Virus record (IMG/VR): IMGVR_UViG_2851924183_000002 | Location: 1 to 64,000 of that record | DNA length: 64,000 nt | Source: a virus | Lineage: Duplodnaviria > Caudoviricetes | Strand: one strand, 5' to 3' | In this document: in pieces, positions 3,169 through 19,477 of the stretch | Layout: each line of letters begins with the position of its first letter | Numbering within the stretch: the stretch's first letter is position 1 | The notes under the pieces: generated by a model | Told to the model about the DNA's origin: nothing | Database searches by the model: none | What the model saw: the letters and a program-made list of their open reading frames with translations, nothing else | Program-made: the position numbers and the translations under genes

Positions 3169-3696
3169 TCACATTTGATTCGATGGTGTGCCGCCACTAC
3201 TATGGCCTTCGTGGCCGTTATACGTATCACGCATGCTTTGCATTGAGCCACTTGAGTCAGATATTTGCCCAGCACTTTCAATGTTTTGTGTTGCAATTAC
3301 TTTGCCGTTAACTTTTAAGTTGCCTTCATCAACAATCAGATCACCGCCACCAACATGTGTACCATCAGCTTTTAGCCAAAGGGTATGTCCGTGTTGGTCA
3401 TAGACGCATGTTTCACCATTGCCAACAGTCACGTTAACAGCACCGTTAGATGTAGCAATGACAATAGATTTGGCTGTTTTACCGTGTAGGGGGATCACTA
3501 CAACTTTCGCATTTTTAGGGATGTATGATGCAAAGCCAACTTGTTGAACCAGTTCAACTTCTTGTAGCGTTTCATCTGCAAAGCCTGTTAACTGCAAAGC
3601 CTTAGCACCACCACGGGCAACAATACCCCAAAAAGCTTGTCTAACTTGACCAAGCCCTTTAGCAACTTGTGATTGAATTGCTCCAACAGTACTCAT
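3169..3696 (-). CDS. Baseplate spike, Mu gp45-like
   Basis: QQVGFAS, GETCVYD, C-terminal YNGHEGH metal-binding tip. Confidence 0.88.
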   Translation of the reverse strand: MSTVGAIQSQVAKGLGQVRQAFWGIVARGGAKALQLTGFADETLQEVELVQQVGFASYIPKNAKVVVIPLHGKTAKSIVIATSNGAVNVTVGNGETCVYDQHGHTLWLKADGTHVGGGDLIVDEGNLKVNGKVIATQNIESAGQISDSSGSMQSMRDTYNGHEGHSSGGTPSNQM

Positions 3697-7051: not shown

Positions 7052-7063
7052 GGAATAATTTCC
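7052..7063 (-). promoter_or_regulatory. Late-activator (Mor/C-type) box GGAA-N4-TTCC upstream of gpN
   Basis: One of six copies, each 56-61 bp upstream of a late gene ATG. Confidence 0.7.
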
Positions 7064-7134
7064 CTAATTTCTACTATTTAGAATAAAAAAATGTTAATAA
7101 TTTGAATGCTATTTCGGCAAAAATAATAGATTAA

Positions 7135-7437
7135 TTGATGAGGGATATTACTTTGAGTAAATATAAAATTGCTCACTTAAGAGAGCAGGGGCAAAATATG
7201 ATTATCATTCCTTTAGATGATAATTTTGAGCACAAAACAAGTAGTGAACAATCTGCCATTGTCGACTCTTTGCAAAGATGTGCTTCAAGCGCTGGTTTAG
7301 CTGGTACAGTCGCTCCAGTTTGGTTGCATGGTCATCAGATGAAATTTATCGCACCGCGACCATGGCATCCATTTTTTAGATCACTTACTTGGAATAATGT
7401 TCTTCAAAACTTAAATAAAGAACTTACTTGTGGCTAA
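7135..7437 (+). CDS. Hypothetical accessory protein, opposite strand to the tail operon
   Basis: About 100 aa ORF with AT-rich upstream region and a downstream hairpin. Confidence 0.7.
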   Translation: MMRDITLSKYKIAHLREQGQNMIIIPLDDNFEHKTSSEQSAIVDSLQRCASSAGLAGTVAPVWLHGHQMKFIAPRPWHPFFRSLTWNNVLQNLNKELTCG

Positions 7438-7603
7438 GTAATTCTTGGATCTGTAAAAGCGCAAGCTCTAATTGCGCTTTTACATCTAGCATTACTTCTT
7501 GATCCAACGAATTTACACCGCCATTTCGGCCTTCTATGTCAAATCTTGAGAATACAACCTCTCCATCTACTTCCACGATTAAACGACTGGTTTTTACTGT
7601 CAT
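7424..7603 (-). CDS. 59-aa hypothetical late protein (not in the ORF track)
   Basis: MTVKTSRLIVEVDGEVVFSRFD...LLSHK; AGGT SD; late box 61 bp upstream. Confidence 0.65.
   Translation of the reverse strand: MTVKTSRLIVEVDGEVVFSRFDIEGRNGGVNSLDQEVMLDVKAQLELALLQIQELLSHK
7452..7484 (+). terminator. 13-bp stem hairpin after 7135..7437
   Basis: TGTAAAAGCGCAA-N7-TTGCGCTTTTACA. Confidence 0.55.
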
Positions 7604-7663
7604 TACCTGATTCCAAAAATATTCGAAATTTCATCTTAAGAGAAAAATTATAAAATTTAAGGG

Positions 7664-7675
7664 GGAATAATTTCC
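7664..7675 (-). promoter_or_regulatory. Late-activator box GGAATAATTTCC
   Basis: Identical to the 7052 copy; 61 bp upstream of the ATG at 7603. Confidence 0.65.
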
Positions 7676-7685
7676 TAATCTAACG

Positions 7686-9782
7686 CTATGGCCTTGCCAG
7701 TAAATAAGGGGGGACTGCTCCGTGACGTTTCTCTTCTTTGCCACCGCCCAGTATGGATTGTTGAAGCGATCCTCCTGGGAAGTTAATGATAGGCTTATTG
7801 TTTTGAGTAACACCAATTAGCGTTTTTATACTGCTAATAAGCTCTCTGCTGTATTGATTGTTTTGTTCTTGTTTAGCAATCATTTCATTATTTTTTTGAG
7901 TCTGCTGTTCAAGGCTTTTATCAATAGCTTGTTGCAAATAGTCTGGACGATCACCAGAACCACCAAAAAACTTATCAATTTTACTATATAGGTAATCATC
8001 AATAGGTTTGTAAAGTTCATAACCAGCATACGCAACCGCTGCTGCACCAGCAGTTTTAGCAACAGGTGCCGCAGCTTTAGTAACAGCCCCACCAACTTTA
8101 GATACAACCCCTCCATCTTTACCGCCTGACAAAACAGTACTAACAGCACCAGCAGCAGCCACAGCAGCTAAAGCTGTAGCAGCAGCATAAGCAGATGCTG
8201 CAAGCCCTTCATTTTCTCTCGCTACATCTGTAACTTTATCCTTGAAATCACCTAATGAGTCTGAAATCGCATCATATGCTTTAGACTGAGCAAAGAGCTT
8301 TTCTTGATTCATTGCTTGGTCTTTTGCCCAATCATTTTGGCTGACCATGTCATATTCACTTGCAACAGTACCACCAGCATTAGGTAAATCATTTTTGATT
8401 TTTGCTAAATCATCTTTTTTATAATAAACCGCCAGTGCCGCCATCAATGCTTGGCGATCTGCTAAAAACTCACCTAATTGACTACCAGAAGCGATATTGC
8501 TCATATCCTCAAGGAGAGATTTTTTCTCTTCATCATTTGTAGAAGCAGAAAGCCTTTTTTGTAAATTTTGATATTCAGAATTTCCAGCAAGCTGGCGCTC
8601 AAGTAACTTTACAAAAGCATCAACACCATAAACACCTTTTTCACGTTCAGCAATTGAGTAGGTTGTCCAATCAAACTCTTGACCAACAACTTTCCCTTTT
8701 TTATTTTTAACAGCTTTGGTTGGTAACCCATCAGTATTCTCTACTGCATCAGCTACAGCTTTTGAAAAATCCCTACTGCTCAGCTTAGCTAAAAGATTGA
8801 CCAGATTATTACCGCCTTCATCTGTTGTTGATGCAGTAGACATCGCAACTTGATTCATCGCAACCAATTCGACAAAACCTTTTTCACCAGAATAACCTGC
8901 CGCTTTTGCAGCTGCCATTTGCTGTGCTAGCCATTTTGCTTGGTCTTTATATTCAAAACTACCAAGCTGTGCACCACGAACAGCAATATCATGGCCTTTT
9001 TGTATATCAGTCATCCCAAAATCCTGCATACGCACCGTTAAGGTTGCAGCATCTTTTGCAGCAGCATCTGTTGAAAAGGCAGTTTTTACAGCTGCATTAA
9101 GTGCAGGAGCAACAGTATTTAAGTCATATTTCCCTGAAGCAATTAAAGCATTTGCTGCCTCAGCTGCATCTTCTCGTGAGCCACCTCCATTACGGACGGC
9201 TGTTTTAATATAGTTATTTAGCGTTTCTTTGCTTTTAAGACGCTCAGCTGTAGATAGTCCTTGACCACCAGTTGCTGTAGCGGTGATATAGGTCAGTTGT
9301 TGGTCATAATCACGAGGCTTTTGCATTGCGTTAGAAACAACAGCTCCAGCAGCAAGTACACCACCACCAATAGCAACAGCCTTTTGCCAATTTGAAATCG
9401 TACTTTTGGATTCTTGTGTTGTGATACGACTGGATTGCTCAACACGCTTCATCCAATCAGCCATATTTTTTGCAGATGCAGCTTGTGTTTTTAATTGCTG
9501 TGATTGCAGTTTTGTCTGAATAGATTGTTGACGCAGAACCCCCTCAAGCATTTTGTTGGTTCGTAGGAGTTGGTCTCCAGCACGCGCTGTACTCACTACA
9601 GCCTGACTACCAACCTTAGCTGTTTGTGTAAACTTGGCTTGAGCTGTTTGGATTTGAGTCCATTGCTGGTTTATTTTTGTAGTTGAACGCACTTGGTCAT
9701 CAGAAATACGCTTCAACTCTTGACTAGCAGCTTGCCCTTTGACTTGAAGCGTTAGCGAGACCGTCGTATTTCCATTAGACAT
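7686..9782 (-). CDS. Tail tape measure protein
   Basis: 698 aa, Ala-rich and helical; GSFEYKDQAKWL core; position. Confidence 0.9.
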   Translation of the reverse strand: MSNGNTTVSLTLQVKGQAASQELKRISDDQVRSTTKINQQWTQIQTAQAKFTQTAKVGSQAVVSTARAGDQLLRTNKMLEGVLRQQSIQTKLQSQQLKTQAASAKNMADWMKRVEQSSRITTQESKSTISNWQKAVAIGGGVLAAGAVVSNAMQKPRDYDQQLTYITATATGGQGLSTAERLKSKETLNNYIKTAVRNGGGSREDAAEAANALIASGKYDLNTVAPALNAAVKTAFSTDAAAKDAATLTVRMQDFGMTDIQKGHDIAVRGAQLGSFEYKDQAKWLAQQMAAAKAAGYSGEKGFVELVAMNQVAMSTASTTDEGGNNLVNLLAKLSSRDFSKAVADAVENTDGLPTKAVKNKKGKVVGQEFDWTTYSIAEREKGVYGVDAFVKLLERQLAGNSEYQNLQKRLSASTNDEEKKSLLEDMSNIASGSQLGEFLADRQALMAALAVYYKKDDLAKIKNDLPNAGGTVASEYDMVSQNDWAKDQAMNQEKLFAQSKAYDAISDSLGDFKDKVTDVARENEGLAASAYAAATALAAVAAAGAVSTVLSGGKDGGVVSKVGGAVTKAAAPVAKTAGAAAVAYAGYELYKPIDDYLYSKIDKFFGGSGDRPDYLQQAIDKSLEQQTQKNNEMIAKQEQNNQYSRELISSIKTLIGVTQNNKPIINFPGGSLQQSILGGGKEEKRHGAVPPYLLARP

Positions 9783-14265: not shown

Positions 14266-14672
14266 GCTACCCATACTCCTTCATTTGTGATTTCTAAAAC
14301 AACACCACCTTCTGATTTGGTATTTGTTGCCGATGTTTTGCATACAGTTTTTGAATCGTGGATGTAGCATTTCTTACCAACCAAAGATTGAACAACTGCA
14401 TCTGCACTAGCGTTATCAAATAAAAAGGCTGAATGTGTACGCACCATCACAAACACGTCTCCATCAGCACCACCAGTGTTATCAATGGTTTCATCAAAGA
14501 TACCTAGATAGGTGAGTCCCGTTGCTGTTTTACCTGGTTCAGCGAATCCTGTTGAACCAACAACAGCTATATGCCCTGCAAAACAAATAGCGTTTGCTTT
14601 TACAGCAACTTGAATAAGGCCTAAATCACGACGTGGTGTTTGGCGATCAGATCCACTTAAAATACTGCTCAT
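14262..14672 (-). CDS. Capsid decoration/cement-like protein
   Basis: DNTGGADGD motif; between protease and capsid. Confidence 0.7.
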   Translation of the reverse strand: MSSILSGSDRQTPRRDLGLIQVAVKANAICFAGHIAVVGSTGFAEPGKTATGLTYLGIFDETIDNTGGADGDVFVMVRTHSAFLFDNASADAVVQSLVGKKCYIHDSKTVCKTSATNTKSEGGVVLEITNEGVWVA

Positions 14673-15742
14673 GCGCCAGCTCCTAAATCAATGCCCATTT
14701 GCTTAGCTACTTCAAAATCTTCAGGTGTGTATTGACCTTGCTTTTGATGATTAGCAGCAATTTGAACGGTTTGTGTTTGTTGTTGACTTAATGCTGCGAT
14801 TTTTGGCAAATCATCTAAGTATGACTTCACAAAATCTGGGTTAGTCTTCGCTTGGTCTTTGACCCAATCAACAGTCGCCTTACCTGTCAATCGACCATCT
14901 GAGCAAGCAGCTAAAATGAGATCATCAATTTCTTTTGCTTGTGCATTTGCCGTTACAGTGGTTGCTTGAGCTAACGCTTCTTTATGCACCGCCATTGGTA
15001 CATATTTGTTTGGGTCGGGTTGTGCCTGGCTATTTGCAGCTAATTTAATTTGATCAATTGCAGAGACAGCATCAAATAAGTTTTGAGCATTAGCAGCAAT
15101 TGTCGTACCTGTTTTTTCTGCAATCTGATTGGTCAGTTTGCTGAGTTCTGCCATAATGTCTTCAGCAGTTGCTGAAATCGGCAGATTCAACATCCAACGC
15201 AGACGTTCTAATAAATCTTCGTTCATTTCTGAATCCTGAGATGTTGTTAAAAATTCTTGTGCAGCTGCTGCAAGCTTGGCTTCAGGCAACTGATCTAAAT
15301 TTGGAGTGTTTGTTAATGCGACGCTATGTAAGCCGAGGATGGTTCCAGTGGTGTCATAGAAGAAGACTGGAGATATGTATTTGTATTCACCCGAATCGAT
15401 AAAGCCTTGAGCTTTTTCGGTCCATTCAAATTGAGTACTACATAAGCCAACTCCTTCTACATAGGTAAAGCCATTTGGTTTTAACCATCCAGCAGCAGGA
15501 GCAGGTTCGCCTTTTTCTTTAGCAATTAATGTGCTGTGTTCATAATCAATGACGAGATCAACACTACGTTGATTTAACACAGCAACCATTTCACGACCAT
15601 GTTCAGGCGTTAGAATCCATGCAGGCGCATCAAATGGGCGACCATCGATACCGCGAAATTCACCTTCAGGTATAATCACAAAATGTTCAGACTGTGCTGA
15701 TAAGCTCATTGAGCATGCAGCAACTAAGAGTGTGCGCTTCAT
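14669..15742 (-). CDS. Prohead protease/scaffold (Mu gpI)
   Basis: IDYEH, APAAGW, EYKYISPVF, VALTNTPNL motifs. Confidence 0.93.
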   Translation of the reverse strand: MKRTLLVAACSMSLSAQSEHFVIIPEGEFRGIDGRPFDAPAWILTPEHGREMVAVLNQRSVDLVIDYEHSTLIAKEKGEPAPAAGWLKPNGFTYVEGVGLCSTQFEWTEKAQGFIDSGEYKYISPVFFYDTTGTILGLHSVALTNTPNLDQLPEAKLAAAAQEFLTTSQDSEMNEDLLERLRWMLNLPISATAEDIMAELSKLTNQIAEKTGTTIAANAQNLFDAVSAIDQIKLAANSQAQPDPNKYVPMAVHKEALAQATTVTANAQAKEIDDLILAACSDGRLTGKATVDWVKDQAKTNPDFVKSYLDDLPKIAALSQQQTQTVQIAANHQKQGQYTPEDFEVAKQMGIDLGAGA

Positions 15743-15800
15743 ACTTCTGCATCTAACTTAAGAAACATGAGTATGAAAAACTTAAGAGGGGATTAGTGTT

Positions 15801-15812
15801 GGAATACGTTCC
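15801..15812 (-). promoter_or_regulatory. Late-activator box GGAATACGTTCC
   Basis: 59 bp upstream of the gpI ATG. Confidence 0.7.
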
Positions 15813-15819
15813 TTATTTT

Positions 15820-15945
15820 TCACTTTTTATAATTTGCGCTGTAATGCGTTCTAACGATCAATAGATATTTCATTCAAGATTCATCGATTTAATTTTTATA
15901 AGTGCATCAATAACAATCTAACGACTATCTAACGCTATATTTATA
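15820..15945. other. Putative strong gyrase site region
   Basis: G-I intergenic position as in Mu; repeated TCTAACG. Confidence 0.45.
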
Positions 15946-16422
15946 TCAATCAAATAGTTTTTGATAGAAATAATCAACATCATCATAGATGGCGCTCTCA
16001 GCTTCTGACTGTAAATTACCATTTTCATCTATAGGCATAAATGGTCGCGCTGGAATATCTCCCCACGGTAATGGACCACCACGAGAAGATTTTCCATATT
16101 GCCCTTGTTTAGCACCAAATTGATGAGTCGGTGCTTTAGGATCAGAGCTGCTGATACTTGCTTCGGTATCATTAGAATCTGGCTGAATACTGTCACGAAG
16201 TTGACCAGACTGACTTAAAATTTTACCAGCCTTGCGTCTTGCCTCTGTGACTGGGCTAAGTCCAGCCCATCCAGGGCGACCTTGAGCATCAAAGTTATCT
16301 TCAACGATAGTCAAAAAACTTCCTGCTATTGCAGAGGTCAAATCCTTTGGACGGTTTATTCCTAAAGCAACTCTAGTTAGCTTTTTGACCAATACATCAT
16401 CATTGATTTGTATCACGCTCAT
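15946..16422 (-). CDS. Virion morphogenesis protein (Mu gpG)
   Basis: GRPGWAGLS, HQFG, IPARPFMP motifs. Confidence 0.92.
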   Translation of the reverse strand: MSVIQINDDVLVKKLTRVALGINRPKDLTSAIAGSFLTIVEDNFDAQGRPGWAGLSPVTEARRKAGKILSQSGQLRDSIQPDSNDTEASISSSDPKAPTHQFGAKQGQYGKSSRGGPLPWGDIPARPFMPIDENGNLQSEAESAIYDDVDYFYQKLFD

Positions 16423-16438
16423 AATTTATACTGTTCCT

Positions 16439-16519
16439 GAGATGGTAGTTTCCTAATAGAAAGGTTACGGTCTAGCAAAGTCTATTCAGTATTATGCTGT
16501 GCAAGTCAGCCACCATCTC
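16439..16519 (+). ncRNA. tRNA-like structured RNA convergent on muF
   Basis: GAGATGGT/ACCATCTC closing stem, TTTC-CTAATA-GAAA arm, GCTG-TGCAAGT-CAGC T-like arm; upstream TTGATT-18-TATACT. Confidence 0.65.
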
Positions 16520-16520
16520 C

Positions 16521-17837
16521 TTATCTGATCAATTCATAGTGCGTAGCATTCAATCCATCTTCAATTGCACCATCCAATATTTTAAAGATACTCACAATTT
16601 CTATTACGCCATTCTGTACTCGCAATGAAAGCTTGATTACCTTTGGATCTTTCTCATCTAAACTCTTAAGAATGTACAGAACACTATCATTTTTTACATC
16701 GTATAAAACAGTTTTAACGTTAGCGATGAGAATAGGTAATTCTTGCCATTCAGCCACGCTTACCGCATCACCAGCATTTTTATGGCGCTTGGCTTTTTTC
16801 CCAATGAGAAGACGATCTTCAACTGTAATGATAGGACTTTCAATTGTTTGTCCTTTTTTAAGCAAGTATGCAACTTCTTCCGCTTGGAACACACCAACCG
16901 TACTTGTTTTACCTTGAGATTTAGCAAAACTTAGGGTGTTCTCAATAAATGCATAATGGGCTTTTTGACGAATAGGGGCGGTTAAAACTTGTTGGACTTG
17001 CTTTAAACCTTCCATATCTCCTAAGTACTTTCGAGCACGCTCTGTCAATACTTGGTCCACAGCATAGCTTGTTGCTGGTGAGCTGTTGAATCCAGCCGCA
17101 GGGCTAAAGCTTATGACTCCATCTTTAGTTGGAATGTCAAAGCGTTGACGTGTCGCATAAACATCAGCACCTGTAAAACTATCTACGCCAATTTTTTCAG
17201 AATATTGAGTCTGATAACCATCACTACTTAAAATTTCTTTACCTTCAACTTCACGTTCAGATCTAGCAATAACACGGCAATTACAACCAAATTTTGAAGG
17301 AGGGTAGGCAGTTGTCCAAAACGGGTCGTCAGCTCTTAAAATACGACCATTCCACGATTTATGCTCTTCACGATAGTTCACCATCGTAATGTGTCGATAC
17401 TCCCAATAAGGACGTGTATCAATAGATTCCATCATTGCTTTATAACGCCCAGCACTAAAAGCCGAACGCATATTGGTGTGATAAATCGTTCGCAATCGAC
17501 GTGGAGATCCAAGCTGTACTTCTTGCTCTTGACCAGCTGGATTAATCACAGTTTTTTTACCCCACCAACCTTTTTCTTGAAGTATTGGGGTAATTTCAGC
17601 TTTCCACTTTTCAAGACTTTGACCTTTTTCCAAAGCCGTGATTAATGATTTCTTAATGTCCTGCAACAAGTCTAATTTAGCAACTTTTGCCACAGTGAAT
17701 GCACGACTATGTGCGTCATCTAAGGTTTGATGCCAATCCCATCCGATTTTATAACCTTTGTTTTTTAAGTATTGAATCGCTTCTTCGGGTGGTTTATGAA
17801 ATAGAGCATTCAATTCAGGGCGTTGAGGTGTGGGCAT
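16521..17837 (-). CDS. MuF (gp30) head morphogenesis protein with putative C-terminal PBECR-like RNase domain
   Basis: AFTVAKV, LRTIYHTN, YPPSKFGCNCRV motifs plus an extra C-terminal domain (KAKRH...LPILIAN..VLYD). Confidence 0.88.
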   Translation of the reverse strand: MPTPQRPELNALFHKPPEEAIQYLKNKGYKIGWDWHQTLDDAHSRAFTVAKVAKLDLLQDIKKSLITALEKGQSLEKWKAEITPILQEKGWWGKKTVINPAGQEQEVQLGSPRRLRTIYHTNMRSAFSAGRYKAMMESIDTRPYWEYRHITMVNYREEHKSWNGRILRADDPFWTTAYPPSKFGCNCRVIARSEREVEGKEILSSDGYQTQYSEKIGVDSFTGADVYATRQRFDIPTKDGVISFSPAAGFNSSPATSYAVDQVLTERARKYLGDMEGLKQVQQVLTAPIRQKAHYAFIENTLSFAKSQGKTSTVGVFQAEEVAYLLKKGQTIESPIITVEDRLLIGKKAKRHKNAGDAVSVAEWQELPILIANVKTVLYDVKNDSVLYILKSLDEKDPKVIKLSLRVQNGVIEIVSIFKILDGAIEDGLNATHYELIR

Positions 17838-19417
17838 TATTCAACCTCAGCTTCAGCACTTAAGCGACCAAGCATTTCACAAGCAAAGATCAGCTGCGTT
17901 AATTTCTCTTGAAGGGCAGGTTCATCATCGTGTGGATGTAGCTCAGAAAGCAGATGAAGTACTTCTTCCTCATTGCTACCAGCTTGAATTTTCTTAACCA
18001 ATTCAGTAAGCCATTGCTCCGAAATGACCTGGCTATTTTCGTCTTGTTCCTTTAAAAGCAACCGCATCGCTTGATCTTCTAACGGAACATTTGCAGTATT
18101 CGCAGCTAGTGATTGCGTTAGAAGTCGAGGAGAAAAAGTATTGGCTGCAAGATTACGAAAATCTGAATTCATTTCTTTCGATTGTTTTGTTAGAACCTCT
18201 TCATTTTCATCCGTAGGCATTGGTATGCCAGTTCGCTCATGTGCCCATCGAACAGGAATTTTCATACCGTTATCGACTAGAGCACCAATCGATTCACTGA
18301 ACGCCTTTAAGTCTTCCGTTTCAGTCAAATCAAAGTAGAATTTTGGATAACGATCAGGTGTAATATTTGGATAATTCAAACGCATTAAATGCGTAATTAA
18401 TGAATCATTAATTGATCTTGCAAGCTGTTTAGAATCCGATTTAACAATGACTTCAAATTGATTTTCATGTGTTTGGCTTTGTGCATTAGTACTGGTTTTA
18501 CCATCAGCCTGGCTAAGTAAAGTCCCACCCACAATAATTTTTGATTGGGTTTGCTCACACCATTTGATTAACGCCATATGATTATCAGTGTCACCATTTG
18601 CAGCACTTTCAAAATCAATGGTCATGCCTTTCGGAATAATACCTCCAGCATTACGTCCGATACTCATAACAGCGCGTAGCAGTGTCATTTTCTCTTCAGC
18701 TGTTGCGCCTTCAGCATATTGACCGATACGAATTGGCAAGCCATAAATTTCTAAGAATTCCATGACATCACGAACGCCATAGTTTTTAAATAAGAAAGGC
18801 CAAGATAAAACACGATGTAAACCTGATCGTGCAATATATCCAGACTTCGCTTTATGACGATGAATAAACCAACCAAAATCCCAAAACTCAGCACCTTCCA
18901 TTGATCCATCATTAAGACGTAGTTCATTGGGGCGATCAACAGGAGTCATAAAATTGCGTGCTAATTGATGCTCAAAACTTGCAGGTAGCCATAGTGAGCC
19001 TATACGTTCCCATTTGATTTCTTGGCAGCTGTAGCCATGACCAACCGCATCCATTGCATCAAACAAGAACATTTCAAAATCTTGAATCTCATCAATCCAT
19101 TCTTTAATTTCTTCAGCAATCTTTTTTTCTTGGTCCGTTGCATTCTTGGGAGGGTTTATTCCCCAAGGCAAGCCATTTACACCTTTCCGACGTTTGTCCA
19201 TTTCACTAAAGATATGACCATCACGTTCTTCCATATCTGCAAAAAGATCAGCTTGAGCTTGAAGACTACCTTGTTCAGCACCGAGGAGTAATTTATGGAG
19301 GCGTGCAGGCGTTAGACCAACAACAGGATGTTCTTGCCACTGATTTGTTAACCAAGCCACATCAGAGGTCTGAGTCGTTTCTAACGCTTGTTTTTGAGAT
19401 TTATCTTTTTTAGCCAT
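17837..19417 (-). CDS. Portal protein (Mu gp29, DUF935)
   Basis: DLFADMEERDGH, FLEIYGLPIRIG motifs. Confidence 0.95.
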   Translation of the reverse strand: MAKKDKSQKQALETTQTSDVAWLTNQWQEHPVVGLTPARLHKLLLGAEQGSLQAQADLFADMEERDGHIFSEMDKRRKGVNGLPWGINPPKNATDQEKKIAEEIKEWIDEIQDFEMFLFDAMDAVGHGYSCQEIKWERIGSLWLPASFEHQLARNFMTPVDRPNELRLNDGSMEGAEFWDFGWFIHRHKAKSGYIARSGLHRVLSWPFLFKNYGVRDVMEFLEIYGLPIRIGQYAEGATAEEKMTLLRAVMSIGRNAGGIIPKGMTIDFESAANGDTDNHMALIKWCEQTQSKIIVGGTLLSQADGKTSTNAQSQTHENQFEVIVKSDSKQLARSINDSLITHLMRLNYPNITPDRYPKFYFDLTETEDLKAFSESIGALVDNGMKIPVRWAHERTGIPMPTDENEEVLTKQSKEMNSDFRNLAANTFSPRLLTQSLAANTANVPLEDQAMRLLLKEQDENSQVISEQWLTELVKKIQAGSNEEEVLHLLSELHPHDDEPALQEKLTQLIFACEMLGRLSAEAEVE

Positions 19418-19477
19418 AACAAAAAGCACAATACGAGATTGTGCTTAGTTTGGGGCAGGCTTGTATATATTTAGAGT

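What the first reader, a model, noticed from the sequence alone, without database searches (positions are those of the whole stretch)
16403..17000. MuF with putative RNase domain paired with a convergent tRNA-like RNA: candidate RNA-antitoxin system
Seen: MuF has an extra C-terminal domain and no immunity ORF follows, since gpG is next. The 98-bp gap holds an ~81-nt plus-strand element (16439-16519) ending 1 nt from the muF stop. It has an 8-bp acceptor-like stem GAGATGGT/ACCATCTC, U8-A9-G10, a D-like arm TTTC-CTAATA-GAAA, an irregular anticodon-like arm and a T-like arm GCTG-TGCAAGT-CAGC. TTGATT(16403)-18-TATACT(16427) would start transcription at about G16439. Knowledge: MuF proteins carry polymorphic C-terminal toxins, including PBECR (Barnase/EndoU/colicin E5-D/RelE-like) RNases, usually with protein immunity partners. 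Inference: the tRNA mimic is a constitutively made antitoxin or decoy for a virion-associated tRNase-like domain, a type III-like TA or defence module embedded in a head gene.
Basis: partly seen in the sequence, partly recalled or inferred. Interest (0 to 1): 0.88.

Follow-up and report, generated by a model that had tools for sequence, protein, structure and literature searches.

The report
tRNA-shaped RNA gene beside phage RNase domain
Between two head genes of an Acinetobacter Mu-like prophage sits a small, conserved, backwards-facing gene for an RNA shaped like a tRNA but unable to decode, and it is kept only in phages whose neighbouring head protein retains a predicted RNA-cutting site, so it may be that enzyme's RNA antidote or partner.

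Summary
The 98-nt gap between muF (16521-17837, minus) and gpG (15946-16422, minus) contains an ~81-nt four-helix cloverleaf at 16439-16519.

- **Structure:** across 16 distinct copies, 11 of 19 base pairs show double compensatory changes (0 of 500 shuffles reach this).
- **Strand:** G·U counts favour the window plus strand, 17 cells against 2. So does a TTGAT-18-TATACT promoter kept in 14 of 15 copies.
- **Not a tRNA:** ARAGORN and Rfam do not call it. Its covariance model does hit antisense F-G spacers with canonical T-loops in distant Mu-like viruses.
- **MuF C-terminus is not "extra":** it is the ordinary MuF-C domain, published as a phage BECR (PBECR) RNase fold. My fold search agrees only weakly (BrnT Z 5.4; colicin D, RelE, CdiA-CT about Z 4).
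- **Link to the RNase site:** in 90 distinct Mu F proteins, a His in the catalytic segment and an F-G spacer of 60 nt or more coincide in 87 (49 have both, 38 have neither). Independent-pair test p is 0.004-0.008 on the full-length tree but unresolved on the C-domain tree. The two features lie about 260 nt apart, so linkage remains a caveat.

No transcript, binding or toxicity evidence exists. This scan had already noted the same RNA class in other genomes. I found no paper on it.

The parts
16403..16408 (+). -35-like hexamer TTGATT of the RNA gene's promoter. It lies inside gpG codons 5-7 on the other strand.
   Evidence: Promoter scan. TTGAT is kept at the same position in 14 of 15 copies. 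It is present in 11 of 12 listed element-bearing gpG starts but only 3 of 12 element-less ones.
16427..16432 (+). -10 hexamer TATACT, 18 nt after the -35 and 6 nt before the first paired base of the RNA.
   Evidence: TATACT is kept in 14 of 15 copies, and the 18-nt spacing in all 15.
16439..16519 (+). The ~81-nt non-decoding tRNA-shaped RNA ('type A'). Outer stem 16439-16446 / 16512-16519. D-like hairpin 16449-16462. A 3-bp helix 16466-16468 / 16489-16491 closes a variable insert. T-like hairpin 16496-16510 with loop TGCAAGT.
   Evidence: covariation, G·U 17 against 2; the covariance model hits the antisense F-G spacers of L137 at E 1.8e-5 and L138 at E 0.005.
16521..17837 (-). muF (Mu gp30-type minor head protein, 438 aa).
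   Evidence: Pfam Phage_Mu_F on residues 59-190 (E 1.6e-20) and phrog_220 on residues 3-399. Aligns over residues 1-438 with Pseudomonas Mu-like phage F proteins.
16524..16943 (-). MuF-C domain (residues 299-438), a predicted BECR/PBECR RNase-like fold. The His-bearing segment K348-A358 lies at 16764-16796 and the H352 codon at 16782-16784.
   Evidence: AlphaFold model with pLDDT 89.6. Fold hits BrnT Z 5.4, and colicin D, RelE and CdiA-CT at about Z 4. H352 lies in helix 347-355. The published assignment is in PMC5512222.
15946..16422 (-). gpG (Mu gp31-type virion morphogenesis / tail completion protein). Its first codons overlap the RNA promoter's -35.
   Evidence: Pfam Phage_tail_S, E 3.4e-16.

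Best explanation
Window 16439-16519 (plus strand) is a real, separately transcribed gene for an ~81-nt tRNA-shaped RNA that cannot decode. It is set antisense between muF and gpG of an Acinetobacter Mu-like prophage and driven by its own sigma-70-type promoter (16403-16432). It is the Acinetobacter branch of a wider class of anticodon-less tRNA-like RNAs that occupy the F-G slot of Mu-like phages.

It is retained only where the C-terminal BECR-type (MuF-C/PBECR) domain of F keeps its His-bearing helix. The most likely mechanism is that the RNA is the partner of that virion-borne RNase-like domain. As a tRNA-body mimic without an anticodon loop, it would bind the domain without being cut. That would neutralise or hold the enzyme in the lysogen or producer cell, making it an RNA immunity factor in place of the protein immunity genes of other MuF toxins.

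Shown: the conserved structure, the likely strand and promoter, homology to forms bearing a T-loop, and co-occurrence with the catalytic segment.

Inferred: transcription, RNase activity, binding, and the direction of the effect.

My odds: real RNA gene about 0.85; functional partner of MuF-C about 0.55; antidote or decoy specifically about 0.35. The confidence given for this entry (0.5) is for 'real RNA gene that works with the MuF-C domain'.
For: 1. **Structure.** In 16 distinct copies 98.7% of 304 cells are paired. 11 of 19 pairs change on both sides, 0 of 500 shuffles reach this, and slid controls give 37-60% paired.

2. **Strand.**
- G·U or U·G cells: 17 in 7 pairs on the plus sense, against 2 in 2 pairs on the muF sense. 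Unpaired cells: 4 against 19 of 304.
- Promoter: -35 TTGAT in 14 of 15 copies, -10 TATACT in 14 of 15, and 18-nt spacing in all 15.
- In L003 the gpG gene was replaced, yet the promoter-bearing stub was kept.
- In other lineages the antisense strand carries -10, cloverleaf, canonical T-loop and a hairpin plus T-run terminator: L149, L168, L186, L076, L077, L084, L085.
- A canonical T-arm is found antisense in 14 of 80 loci, and sense in 1 of 80 (L137, which also scores antisense).
- Model R1 hits only the antisense strand of the L137 and L138 spacers.

3. **Domain.**
- Iyer et al. 2017 (PMC5512222, passages read) define MuF-C as a PBECR domain with a catalytic His in the N-terminal helix. They call Mu's own copy inactive.
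- My C-domain model's best structural matches are BECR/RelE-type RNase toxins.
- H352 sits in helix 347-355.

4. **Coupling.**
- In Acinetobacter, 17 of 17 distinct F proteins next to the RNA keep K-A-x-R-H. 0 of 19 without the RNA do; those carry a 7-9-residue deletion there.
- Across 90 distinct Mu F proteins: His in the segment with spacer of 60 nt or more, 49; neither, 38; discordant, 3.
- On the full-length tree there are 9 independent pairs. 8-9 go the same way and 0 the opposite way, p 0.004-0.008.
- Mu-type (D108), MP42, PM105 and Shewanella MuM16-1 lack both the His and the spacer.

5. **Orphan and tandem copies.**
- A solitary copy in G201 and three tandem copies in the G006 remnant, both genomes without an F match to this query at E <= 1e-20.
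- Two tandem copies in L064, beside an intact F.
- This resembles the arrays of orphan immunity genes in polymorphic toxin systems (that resemblance is recalled, not tested).
Against: - **No transcript evidence.** The runs holding this DNA are kept only as contigs, with no strand or end information.
- **No terminator.** No terminator-like site follows the type-A RNA on the plus strand.
- **Weak fold matches.** The best Z is 5.4, below the tool's own caution line of 8, and Foldseek gives nothing at E <= 0.001. The C-terminal Ser/Thr of the published active site was not identified.
- **Physical linkage.** The His codon and the RNA lie about 260 nt apart, so block recombination can move both together.
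  - Within Acinetobacter the C-domain tree needs only 2 changes, and its supported branches force only 1.
  - On the C-domain-only tree of the 90 proteins only 3 supported pairs exist, p 0.5.
- **Exceptions.**
  - L119, L125 and L126 have a His at the neighbouring site but no spacer.
  - Ralstonia phage YO088_1 has D-x4-H but F and G overlap (not among the 90).
  - L040 has two adjacent His but only a 57-nt AT-rich gap, and L079 has a stem-closed 130-nt spacer but no His that I could see. Both were judged by eye, in another subfamily.
- **Timing.** F is a late protein made in a cell that is about to lyse, so the need for an antidote there is not obvious.
Confidence: 0.5

Rival explanations
1. 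The RNA gene is real but works independently of MuF. It would be a lysogen-expressed 'moron': a tRNA-body mimic that titrates or decoys a host factor, such as a tRNA-targeting defence nuclease, RNase P, or tRNA-modifying or CCA-adding enzymes. Under this reading it sits next to His-bearing MuF-C only because the two are adjacent and inherited as a block.
For: It has its own promoter and the antisense orientation typical of morons. Orphan copies persist in genomes with no F match. The C-domain trees cannot exclude few block events. The most conserved parts are the D-like and T-like loops, which would form the tRNA 'elbow' that many host enzymes recognise (the elbow reading is recalled knowledge).
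Against: The spacer and the His segment are lost together in very different C-domain backgrounds: the Acinetobacter, Mu/D108-type, L152/L159, L143, MP42, PM105, Shewanella and L078 types. These are two separate indels with the intervening ~85 codons retained. 0 of 90 proteins without a His in the segment has a spacer of 60 nt or more.
Confidence: 0.25
2. The plus-strand RNA is a cis-antisense regulator. It would pair with the F-G junction of the late mRNA and control gpG translation or late-mRNA stability, or silence leaky late expression in the lysogen.
For: It is perfectly complementary to the late mRNA between the muF stop and the gpG ribosome-binding region. Its promoter overlaps the gpG start.
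Against: A pure antisense RNA needs no conserved cloverleaf. Here three of the four helices keep pairing through compensatory changes, and the loops are invariant. Tandem and orphan copies exist where there is no intact F or G to regulate. The predicted RNA starts downstream of the gpG Shine-Dalgarno region, so it would not cover it.
Confidence: 0.08
3. The functional strand is the muF sense strand. The element would be a structured spacer within the late mRNA whose closing stem brings the muF stop next to the gpG start (a substitute for the ATGA overlap of relatives), or an mRNA processing or stability site.
For: Most relatives couple F and G by an ATGA overlap. The outer stem begins at or within the stop codon and ends ~16 nt before the gpG ATG. 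The mirror structure still pairs in 93.8% of cells.
Against: The G·U and mismatch asymmetry favours the other strand: 17 against 2 G·U cells, and 4 against 19 unpaired cells. Promoter, T-loop and terminators all lie on the antisense strand in related lineages. Orphan copies keep the antisense promoter.
Confidence: 0.07
4. The element has no present function. It would be a decaying tRNA gene fragment or a selfish insertion that happens to be palindromic.
For: tRNA finders do not call it. It is absent from many otherwise similar prophages.
Against: Compensatory changes keep three helices intact across F proteins down to 34-39% identity. Loop sequences and the promoter are invariant or nearly so. 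The 23-nt core occurs only at this slot or its remnants: 15 copies in 12 of 247 Acinetobacter genomes, against 1 hit for the reversed control pattern.
Confidence: 0.03

Closest known systems
Phage-encoded and non-canonical tRNAs, including the 8/4 'allo-tRNA' type (Mukai et al. 2017, PMC5389517; abstract and passages read)
   Same: A four-way cloverleaf. The acceptor branch is an 8-bp stem plus a 4-bp T-like stem with a 7-nt loop, with one unpaired base between them. Connector lengths are tRNA-like in the plus sense. Relatives carry a canonical TTCGA T-loop. The paper notes that some allo-tRNAs lie near toxin-antitoxin genes and may not be used in translation.
   Different: There is no anticodon loop (the arm is variable or absent), no G18G19 in the D-like loop, G instead of the second T in the T-loop, and no encoded CCA. 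ARAGORN and Rfam do not call it.
Type III toxin-antitoxin systems (ToxIN-like; description recalled, not read here)
   Same: The proposed logic is the same: a small structured RNA directly neutralising an endoribonuclease encoded next to it on a mobile element.
   Different: The RNA here is single-copy and cloverleaf-shaped, not tandem repeats cut by the toxin. It is convergent and downstream rather than upstream in the same operon. The nuclease is a BECR-type domain fused to a virion protein, not a ToxN-type protein. No binding has been shown.
MuF polymorphic toxins with protein immunity genes (Jamet et al. 2017, PMC5576092; Iyer et al. 2017, PMC5512222; passages read)
   Same: An N-terminal MuF head-protein module carries a C-terminal effector domain, here the MuF-C/PBECR RNase-like domain. 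The slot just downstream of muF is where the immunity determinant sits.
   Different: No small immunity ORF follows. gpG is next, and the only ORF in the gap (plus strand, 16494-16628, 44 aa) is not conserved. The slot holds an RNA gene instead. The C-domain is the ancestral one of the Mu F family rather than a swapped-in cassette.
Colicin D tRNase and its immunity protein ImmD (PDB 1tfk and 5znm appear among my fold hits; that ImmD mimics tRNA is recalled, not read here)
   Same: A BECR-fold tRNase kept inactive by a molecule that occupies the tRNA-binding site.
   Different: There the inhibitor is a protein that imitates tRNA. Here the proposed inhibitor would itself be a tRNA-like RNA.
Anticodon-less tRNA-shaped RNA genes between F and G of Mu-like prophages, noted earlier by this scan in other genomes (unpublished AI notes)
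   Same: Same slot, same antisense orientation with its own promoter, and the same lack of an anticodon. Two notes make the same claim of a link to an intact RNase site in F.
   Different: The window's RNA is a divergent Acinetobacter subfamily. It has a non-canonical T-loop (TGCAAGT), a 3-bp stub with a variable insert instead of a tetraloop-capped stem, and no terminator. Model R1 finds none of the lineage-2 forms at a credible score; its only match in those loci (L085, 12.5 bits, E 2.2) lies outside the spacer.

Membership tests
Canonical tRNA (Rfam RF00005 / ARAGORN) | Recognised by tRNA gene finders or the covariance model | tested here: not met
   ARAGORN finds 0 genes in the 64-kb window. 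Rfam at E <= 10 gives no tRNA match in 15800-17200. ARAGORN finds 0 genes in each of the 8 type-A loci scanned and in 46 of 46 further Mu F loci. It makes one marginal call, in lineage 2 (L085, tRNA-Phe aaa).
Canonical tRNA (Rfam RF00005 / ARAGORN) | Four-helix cloverleaf closed by an acceptor stem | tested here: met
   Four helices with 98.7% of cells paired, and covariation in the outer stem, the stub helix and the T-like stem.
Canonical tRNA (Rfam RF00005 / ARAGORN) | 5-bp anticodon stem with a 7-nt anticodon loop | tested here: not met
   Only a 3-bp helix is conserved. Its insert differs in every lineage and is reduced to about 10 nt in 4 of 16 copies: L005, L050, L059, L068.
Canonical tRNA (Rfam RF00005 / ARAGORN) | T-loop T-T-C-R-A, D-loop G18G19, 3' CCA | tested here: not met
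   The loop is TGCAAGT, the D-like loop has a single G, and ACCATCTC is followed by C-TTA. Homologues L137 and L138 do have TTCGA loops.
MuF-C / PBECR domain (Iyer et al. 2017) | C-terminal domain of a Mu F (gp30)-type protein, homologous along its length to the Mu F family | tested here: met
   Aligns over residues 1-438 to Pseudomonas Mu-like phage F proteins and to many representatives over residues 8-438. D108 gp30 is matched over residues 16-429.
MuF-C / PBECR domain (Iyer et al. 2017) | [quoted passage not shown] | tested here: inconclusive
   The model has pLDDT 89.6 and consists of helices followed by a four-stranded sheet. The best matches are BrnT (Z 5.4, rmsd 3.3, 75 residues aligned) and colicin D, RelE, CdiA-CT and ParE at Z 4.0-4.2. 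All are below Z 8. Foldseek finds none at E <= 0.001.
MuF-C / PBECR domain (Iyer et al. 2017) | Catalytic His in the N-terminal helix | tested here: met
   H352 lies in the motif K-A-K-R-H, inside helix 347-355. The segment is deleted in element-less relatives. That this His is the catalytic one is inferred from the paper's description.
MuF-C / PBECR domain (Iyer et al. 2017) | C-terminal Ser/Thr of the active site | not tested
   I did not identify the equivalent residue. The paper's alignment figure and supplements were not available to me.
Type III toxin-antitoxin (ToxIN-like; features recalled) | Antitoxin is an array of short repeats upstream of the toxin and in the same orientation, processed by the toxin | tested here: not met
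   There is a single ~81-nt cloverleaf, convergent with and downstream of muF. Tandem copies occur only in L064 (2 copies) and G006 (3 copies).
Type III toxin-antitoxin (ToxIN-like; features recalled) | The RNA binds and inhibits the RNase protein | not testable with these tools
   The complex predictor takes proteins and small ligands only.
MuF polymorphic toxin with immunity protein (Jamet et al. 2017) | A small immunity ORF immediately downstream of muF | tested here: not met
   gpG follows after 98 nt. The only ORF touching the gap is on the plus strand at 16494-16628 (44 aa). It stops after 11 codons in L005.
C4/CI-type processed antisense immunity RNAs of P1/P4 (Rfam C4; recalled) | Match to the Rfam family model | tested here: not met
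   No such match at E <= 10 in the window stretch, nor at E <= 1 in 12 related loci.

The most novel reading that the evidence does not exclude
Mu-like phages carry a widespread, undescribed kind of immunity. Dedicated tRNA-shaped RNAs without anticodons would act as uncleavable substrate mimics that switch off the BECR-type tRNase domain of the virion protein F. This would be an RNA counterpart of colicin and CDI immunity proteins. Orphan and tandem copies would be 'orphan immunity' genes kept by hosts to blunt the RNase that related phages inject. One such copy sits right after the last repeat of a type I-F CRISPR array.
Probability: 0.3. Interest if true: 0.9.

Novelty: new variant of a known kind. 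Interest (0 to 1): 0.8.

Why it matters
If the pairing is real, it gives a function to two long-unexplained parts of a classic phage family: the C-terminal domain of Mu protein F and the F-G spacer. It would also add a new class of RNA-protein conflict module, in which a tRNA mimic serves as the immunity factor for a virion-delivered RNase. The module is common in prophages of Acinetobacter and, by the wider survey here, of many other Proteobacteria.

It is directly testable with ordinary toxin-antitoxin assays. It would also explain why some Mu F proteins, Mu's own included, have lost both the catalytic segment and the spacer. Even without that link, this is a conserved phage small RNA family that tRNA finders and Rfam miss.

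Tried and rejected
- **tRNA and known RNA families.** ARAGORN on the window, on 22 related loci and on 46 further loci gave one marginal call (L085), outside type A. Rfam gave only chance-level snoRNA-type rows and nothing at E <= 1 in 12 loci.

- **Repeat or mobile element.** The 98-nt gap occurs once in the 74-kb provirus record. The conserved D-like segment has no second, near-complementary site in the window at up to 3 mismatches, so I found no trans-target.

- **Collection scans.** The genome contigs pattern scan gave 6 stretches. Only 1 (Acinetobacter sp. ANC 4470) is the element. The other 5 match the two pattern halves only and were dropped.

- **Expression.** The look-up of sequencing runs listed 21 runs, all kept as Logan contigs, with only one on record as RNA. 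Laying X11, X1, X3 and X6 gave no strand, start or end information. Contigs cross the element, and some branch inside it, which shows variants rather than transcripts. No conclusion was drawn.

- **Whole-protein fold search.** It gave nothing, so I folded the C-domain alone.

- **Invalid tree.** The second tree was built from unaligned rows through my own error (equal-length rows were taken as already aligned). It is discarded and was redone.

- **Model R1.** It does not credibly find lineage 2 (L076, L077, L084, L085), and the 'GGAGGGAC' type spacers give no match. The only row in those loci is a match in L085 at 3352-3425, outside the spacer, at 12.5 bits and E 2.2. Those spacers are analogous occupants of the slot, not shown to be homologous.

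- **Literature.** Searches found no paper describing a tRNA-like RNA beside Mu F. The library lacks most subscription journals. Supplements were closed, including the catalogue of 10,006 viral structured RNAs (PMC10690425) and the alignments of PMC5512222. Either might list this motif or the active-site residues.

- **First submission.** One search was returned for a missing confidence field. This report is the same with that field added.
Full report
**Setting.** The window is part of a 74-kb provirus record. The region holds a Mu-type head module on the minus strand:
- portal, 17837-19429
- muF, 16521-17837 (438 aa)
- gpG, 15946-16422
- protease/scaffold I, 14669-15742

Close homologues of MuF are named as Acinetobacter phage head morphogenesis proteins.

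**Checking the observation.** On this single sequence the evidence is thin:
- Fold z-scores are -2.4 on the plus strand and -2.3 on the minus strand.
- Promoter-like sites are no more frequent than in shuffles: 3 found against 4.1 expected.
- ARAGORN and Rfam find no tRNA or any known family.

**Comparative evidence for an RNA.** I collected F-G junctions from IMG/VR, metagenomes and 247 Acinetobacter species genomes.
- Many relatives join F and G by an ATGA overlap and have no element.
- Sixteen distinct copies of the element were found. All lie at the F-G junction or in its remnants.
- The 23-nt core occurs 15 times in 12 of 247 genomes, against 1 hit for the reversed control.
- Aligned in the plus sense (A2), a four-helix cloverleaf pairs in 98.7% of 304 cells. 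11 of 19 pairs change on both sides, 0 of 500 shuffles reach this, and slid controls give 37-60% paired.
- Covariation lies in three helices: the outer stem (6 of 8 pairs), a 3-bp helix TAC/GTA that closes a variable insert (3 of 3), and the T-like stem (2 of 4).
- The D-like stem is invariant, so it is neither supported nor refuted.

**Which strand.** The mirror structure on the muF-sense alignment (A1) pairs in 93.8% of cells. Several lines favour the plus strand:
- G·U or U·G cells number 17, in 7 pairs, on the plus sense. They number 2, in 2 pairs, on the muF sense. Ten of the 17 sit in one pair, so by pairs the asymmetry is 7 against 2.
- The plus-strand promoter is kept: TTGAT in 14 of 15 copies, TATACT in 14 of 15, and 18-nt spacing in all 15.
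- The -35 lies in gpG codons. ATCAA at that place is found in 11 of 12 listed element-bearing gpG genes and in 3 of 12 listed element-less ones.
- In L003, gpG was replaced by recombination, but the stub carrying the -35 was kept.
- In other Mu-like lineages the antisense strand of the F-G spacer shows, in order, a -10, a cloverleaf with a canonical D-loop and T-loop, and a hairpin plus T-run terminator or a T-run directly after the acceptor stem.
- A canonical T-arm is found antisense in 14 of 80 loci and sense in 1 of 80. That one locus, L137, scores on both strands.
- The covariance model built from the 16 copies (R1) hits the antisense spacer of L137 (E 1.8e-5, F 39% identical) and L138 (E 0.005, F 34% identical). 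There the loop aligned to TGCAAGT is TTCGATT or TTCGAGT.

It is not a tRNA. It has no anticodon loop, no G18G19, no CCA, and G in place of the second T of the T-loop.

**The protein.** Pfam sees only Phage_Mu_F on residues 59-190. The rest is not an add-on, however:
- The whole 438 residues align to F proteins of Pseudomonas Mu-like phages at 36% identity.
- They also align to many 50%-identity cluster representatives, out of 7763 hits.

Iyer et al. 2017 (PMC5512222, passages read) define this C-terminal 'MuF-C' region as a phage BECR (PBECR) domain. They place a catalytic His in the N-terminal helix, call Mu's own copy inactive, and predict that orthologues are active RNases.

My models are confident: pLDDT 87.6 for the whole protein and 89.6 for residues 299-438. 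The search results were:
- The whole protein found nothing in the PDB.
- For the C-domain, Foldseek ranked RelE-type toxins first, but at E 0.2 or worse.
- The exhaustive aligner ranked BrnT first (Z 5.4). Colicin D, RelE, CdiA-CT tRNases, ParE, YoeB and HigB followed at Z 3.3-4.2.

This is coherent with the published assignment but too weak to stand alone.

**The link between RNA and RNase site.** Earlier notes of this scan claimed that such RNAs occur only beside F proteins with an intact RNase site, so I tested this.

Within Acinetobacter:
- 17 of 17 distinct F proteins beside the RNA keep K-A-x-R-H (H352 in the window, in helix 347-355).
- 0 of 19 without it do. These carry a 7-9-residue deletion exactly there.
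- On the N-terminal-domain tree this needs 5 changes. On the C-domain tree it needs only 2, and supported branches force only 1.
- So inside this genus, block recombination of 'C-domain plus spacer' can explain the pattern.

Wider survey. I fetched 80 more Mu F loci. Together with the earlier loci and four annotated phages, this gave 90 distinct F proteins with an aligned C-domain and a located gpG. Short F proteins, proteins whose C-domain did not align, and loci without a gpG hit were dropped.
- His at the R-H site with a spacer of 60 nt or more: 42.
- Neither: 41.
- Spacer without that His: 7. All 7 have a His at the neighbouring site.
- Counting any His in the segment: 49 have both, 38 have neither, and 3 are discordant. 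The discordant ones are L119, L125 and L126, with a His but no spacer.
- Independent pairs on the full-length tree: 9 pairs, of which 8-9 go the same way and 0 the opposite way, p 0.004-0.008.
- On a C-domain-only tree there are just 3 supported pairs, p 0.5, although the best tree needs 7 changes of the spacer trait.

Named phages fit the pattern. D108 (Mu-type), MP42, PM105 and Shewanella MuM16-1 lack both the His and the spacer. BcepMu has no C-domain and no spacer.

Exceptions outside the 90:
- Ralstonia phage YO088_1 has D-x4-H but F and G overlap.
- L040 has two adjacent His but a short AT-rich gap. L079 has a stem-closed spacer but no evident His. Both were judged by eye, in another subfamily.

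The losses occur in very different C-domain sequence backgrounds. Each is made of two separate indels about 260 nt apart. I therefore read the coupling as probably functional, with linkage as the stated caveat.

**Mechanism.** BECR toxins such as colicin D and several CdiA-CT domains are tRNases (as named in the PDB titles, and from general knowledge). A tRNA body without an anticodon arm is what an uncleavable competitive inhibitor of such an enzyme would look like. It occupies the slot where MuF toxins of other phages carry a protein immunity gene (PMC5576092).

A constitutive promoter would load the lysogen with the RNA. That would protect it from F injected by sibling virions, or hold F inactive during assembly.

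Orphan and tandem copies fit an immunity-gene pattern. There are three tandem copies in a prophage remnant in G006. A solitary copy in G201 lies directly after the last repeat of a 33-repeat type I-F CRISPR array. There are also two tandem copies in L064.

None of this shows binding, inhibition or even transcription. The RNA could equally be a cofactor, a substrate or cargo of the domain, or serve a host-directed role.

**Novelty.** This scan had already noted the same class in at least six other genomes, so this is not the scan's first sighting. I found no paper describing it, and supplements were closed.

The window adds three things:
- a divergent Acinetobacter subfamily
- its homology to forms bearing a T-loop
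- a broader, partly phylogeny-corrected test of the link to the RNase site

**Verdict.** This is a real and unusual feature whose proposed function is plausible, testable and unproven.

Noticed in passing
L111 (G201:C25) about 7055-9175: A solitary type-A RNA gene, with its promoter and a ~100-nt stub of gpG, lies directly after the last repeat of a 33-repeat type I-F CRISPR array. csy1-4 lie upstream and gyrA is convergent downstream. The RNA gene points the same way as the cas genes. G201 has no MuF match to this query at E <= 1e-20.
   Followed up: partly
L089/L112 (G006:C4) about 1360-1625; L064 1327-1506: Tandem copies of the RNA gene: three in a decayed prophage remnant on a 2.9-kb contig, and two in an intact prophage. 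The cores are alike but the outer stems differ.
   Followed up: partly
L139, L141, L164, L165, L027, L029, L033, L034 (F-G spacers): Other Mu-like lineages fill the same slot with differently shaped structured spacers. One type has a GGAGG...CCTCC hairpin with a 9-10-nt loop. Each is closed by a stem that starts at the muF stop. Neither model R1 nor Rfam recognises them.
   Followed up: partly
L149, L168, L186 (F-G spacers, antisense strand): Complete antisense transcription units. In order they show a -10, a tRNA-like cloverleaf with an AATGGTAA D-loop and a GGTTCGA T-loop, a capped stem in place of the anticodon arm, and then a clear hairpin plus T-run terminator.
   Followed up: partly
L003 / L044 / L113, about 60 nt after the element: gpG was replaced by a 52%-identical version. 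The junction lies just beyond the RNA promoter's -35 and leaves a short remnant ORF, so the promoter and RNA behaved as one unit.
   Followed up: partly
window 16494-16628 (+): A 44-aa plus-strand ORF starts inside the T-like arm and runs antisense into muF. In L005 the same frame stops after 11 codons, so it is probably not a gene.
   Followed up: yes
window 15743-15945: A ~200-nt gap between gpG and the protease gene I. Another first-stage note places a GGAA-N4-TTCC late-promoter box at 15801. In Pseudomonas relatives this slot holds small accessory genes (MP42 gp32 and gp33).
   Followed up: no
window 16430-16467 in runs X1 and X6: Wastewater contigs share 30-40 nt of the promoter-proximal part of the element and then diverge, one of them at higher depth than the window-like contig. 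This suggests several variants of the locus co-occur in those samples.
   Followed up: no
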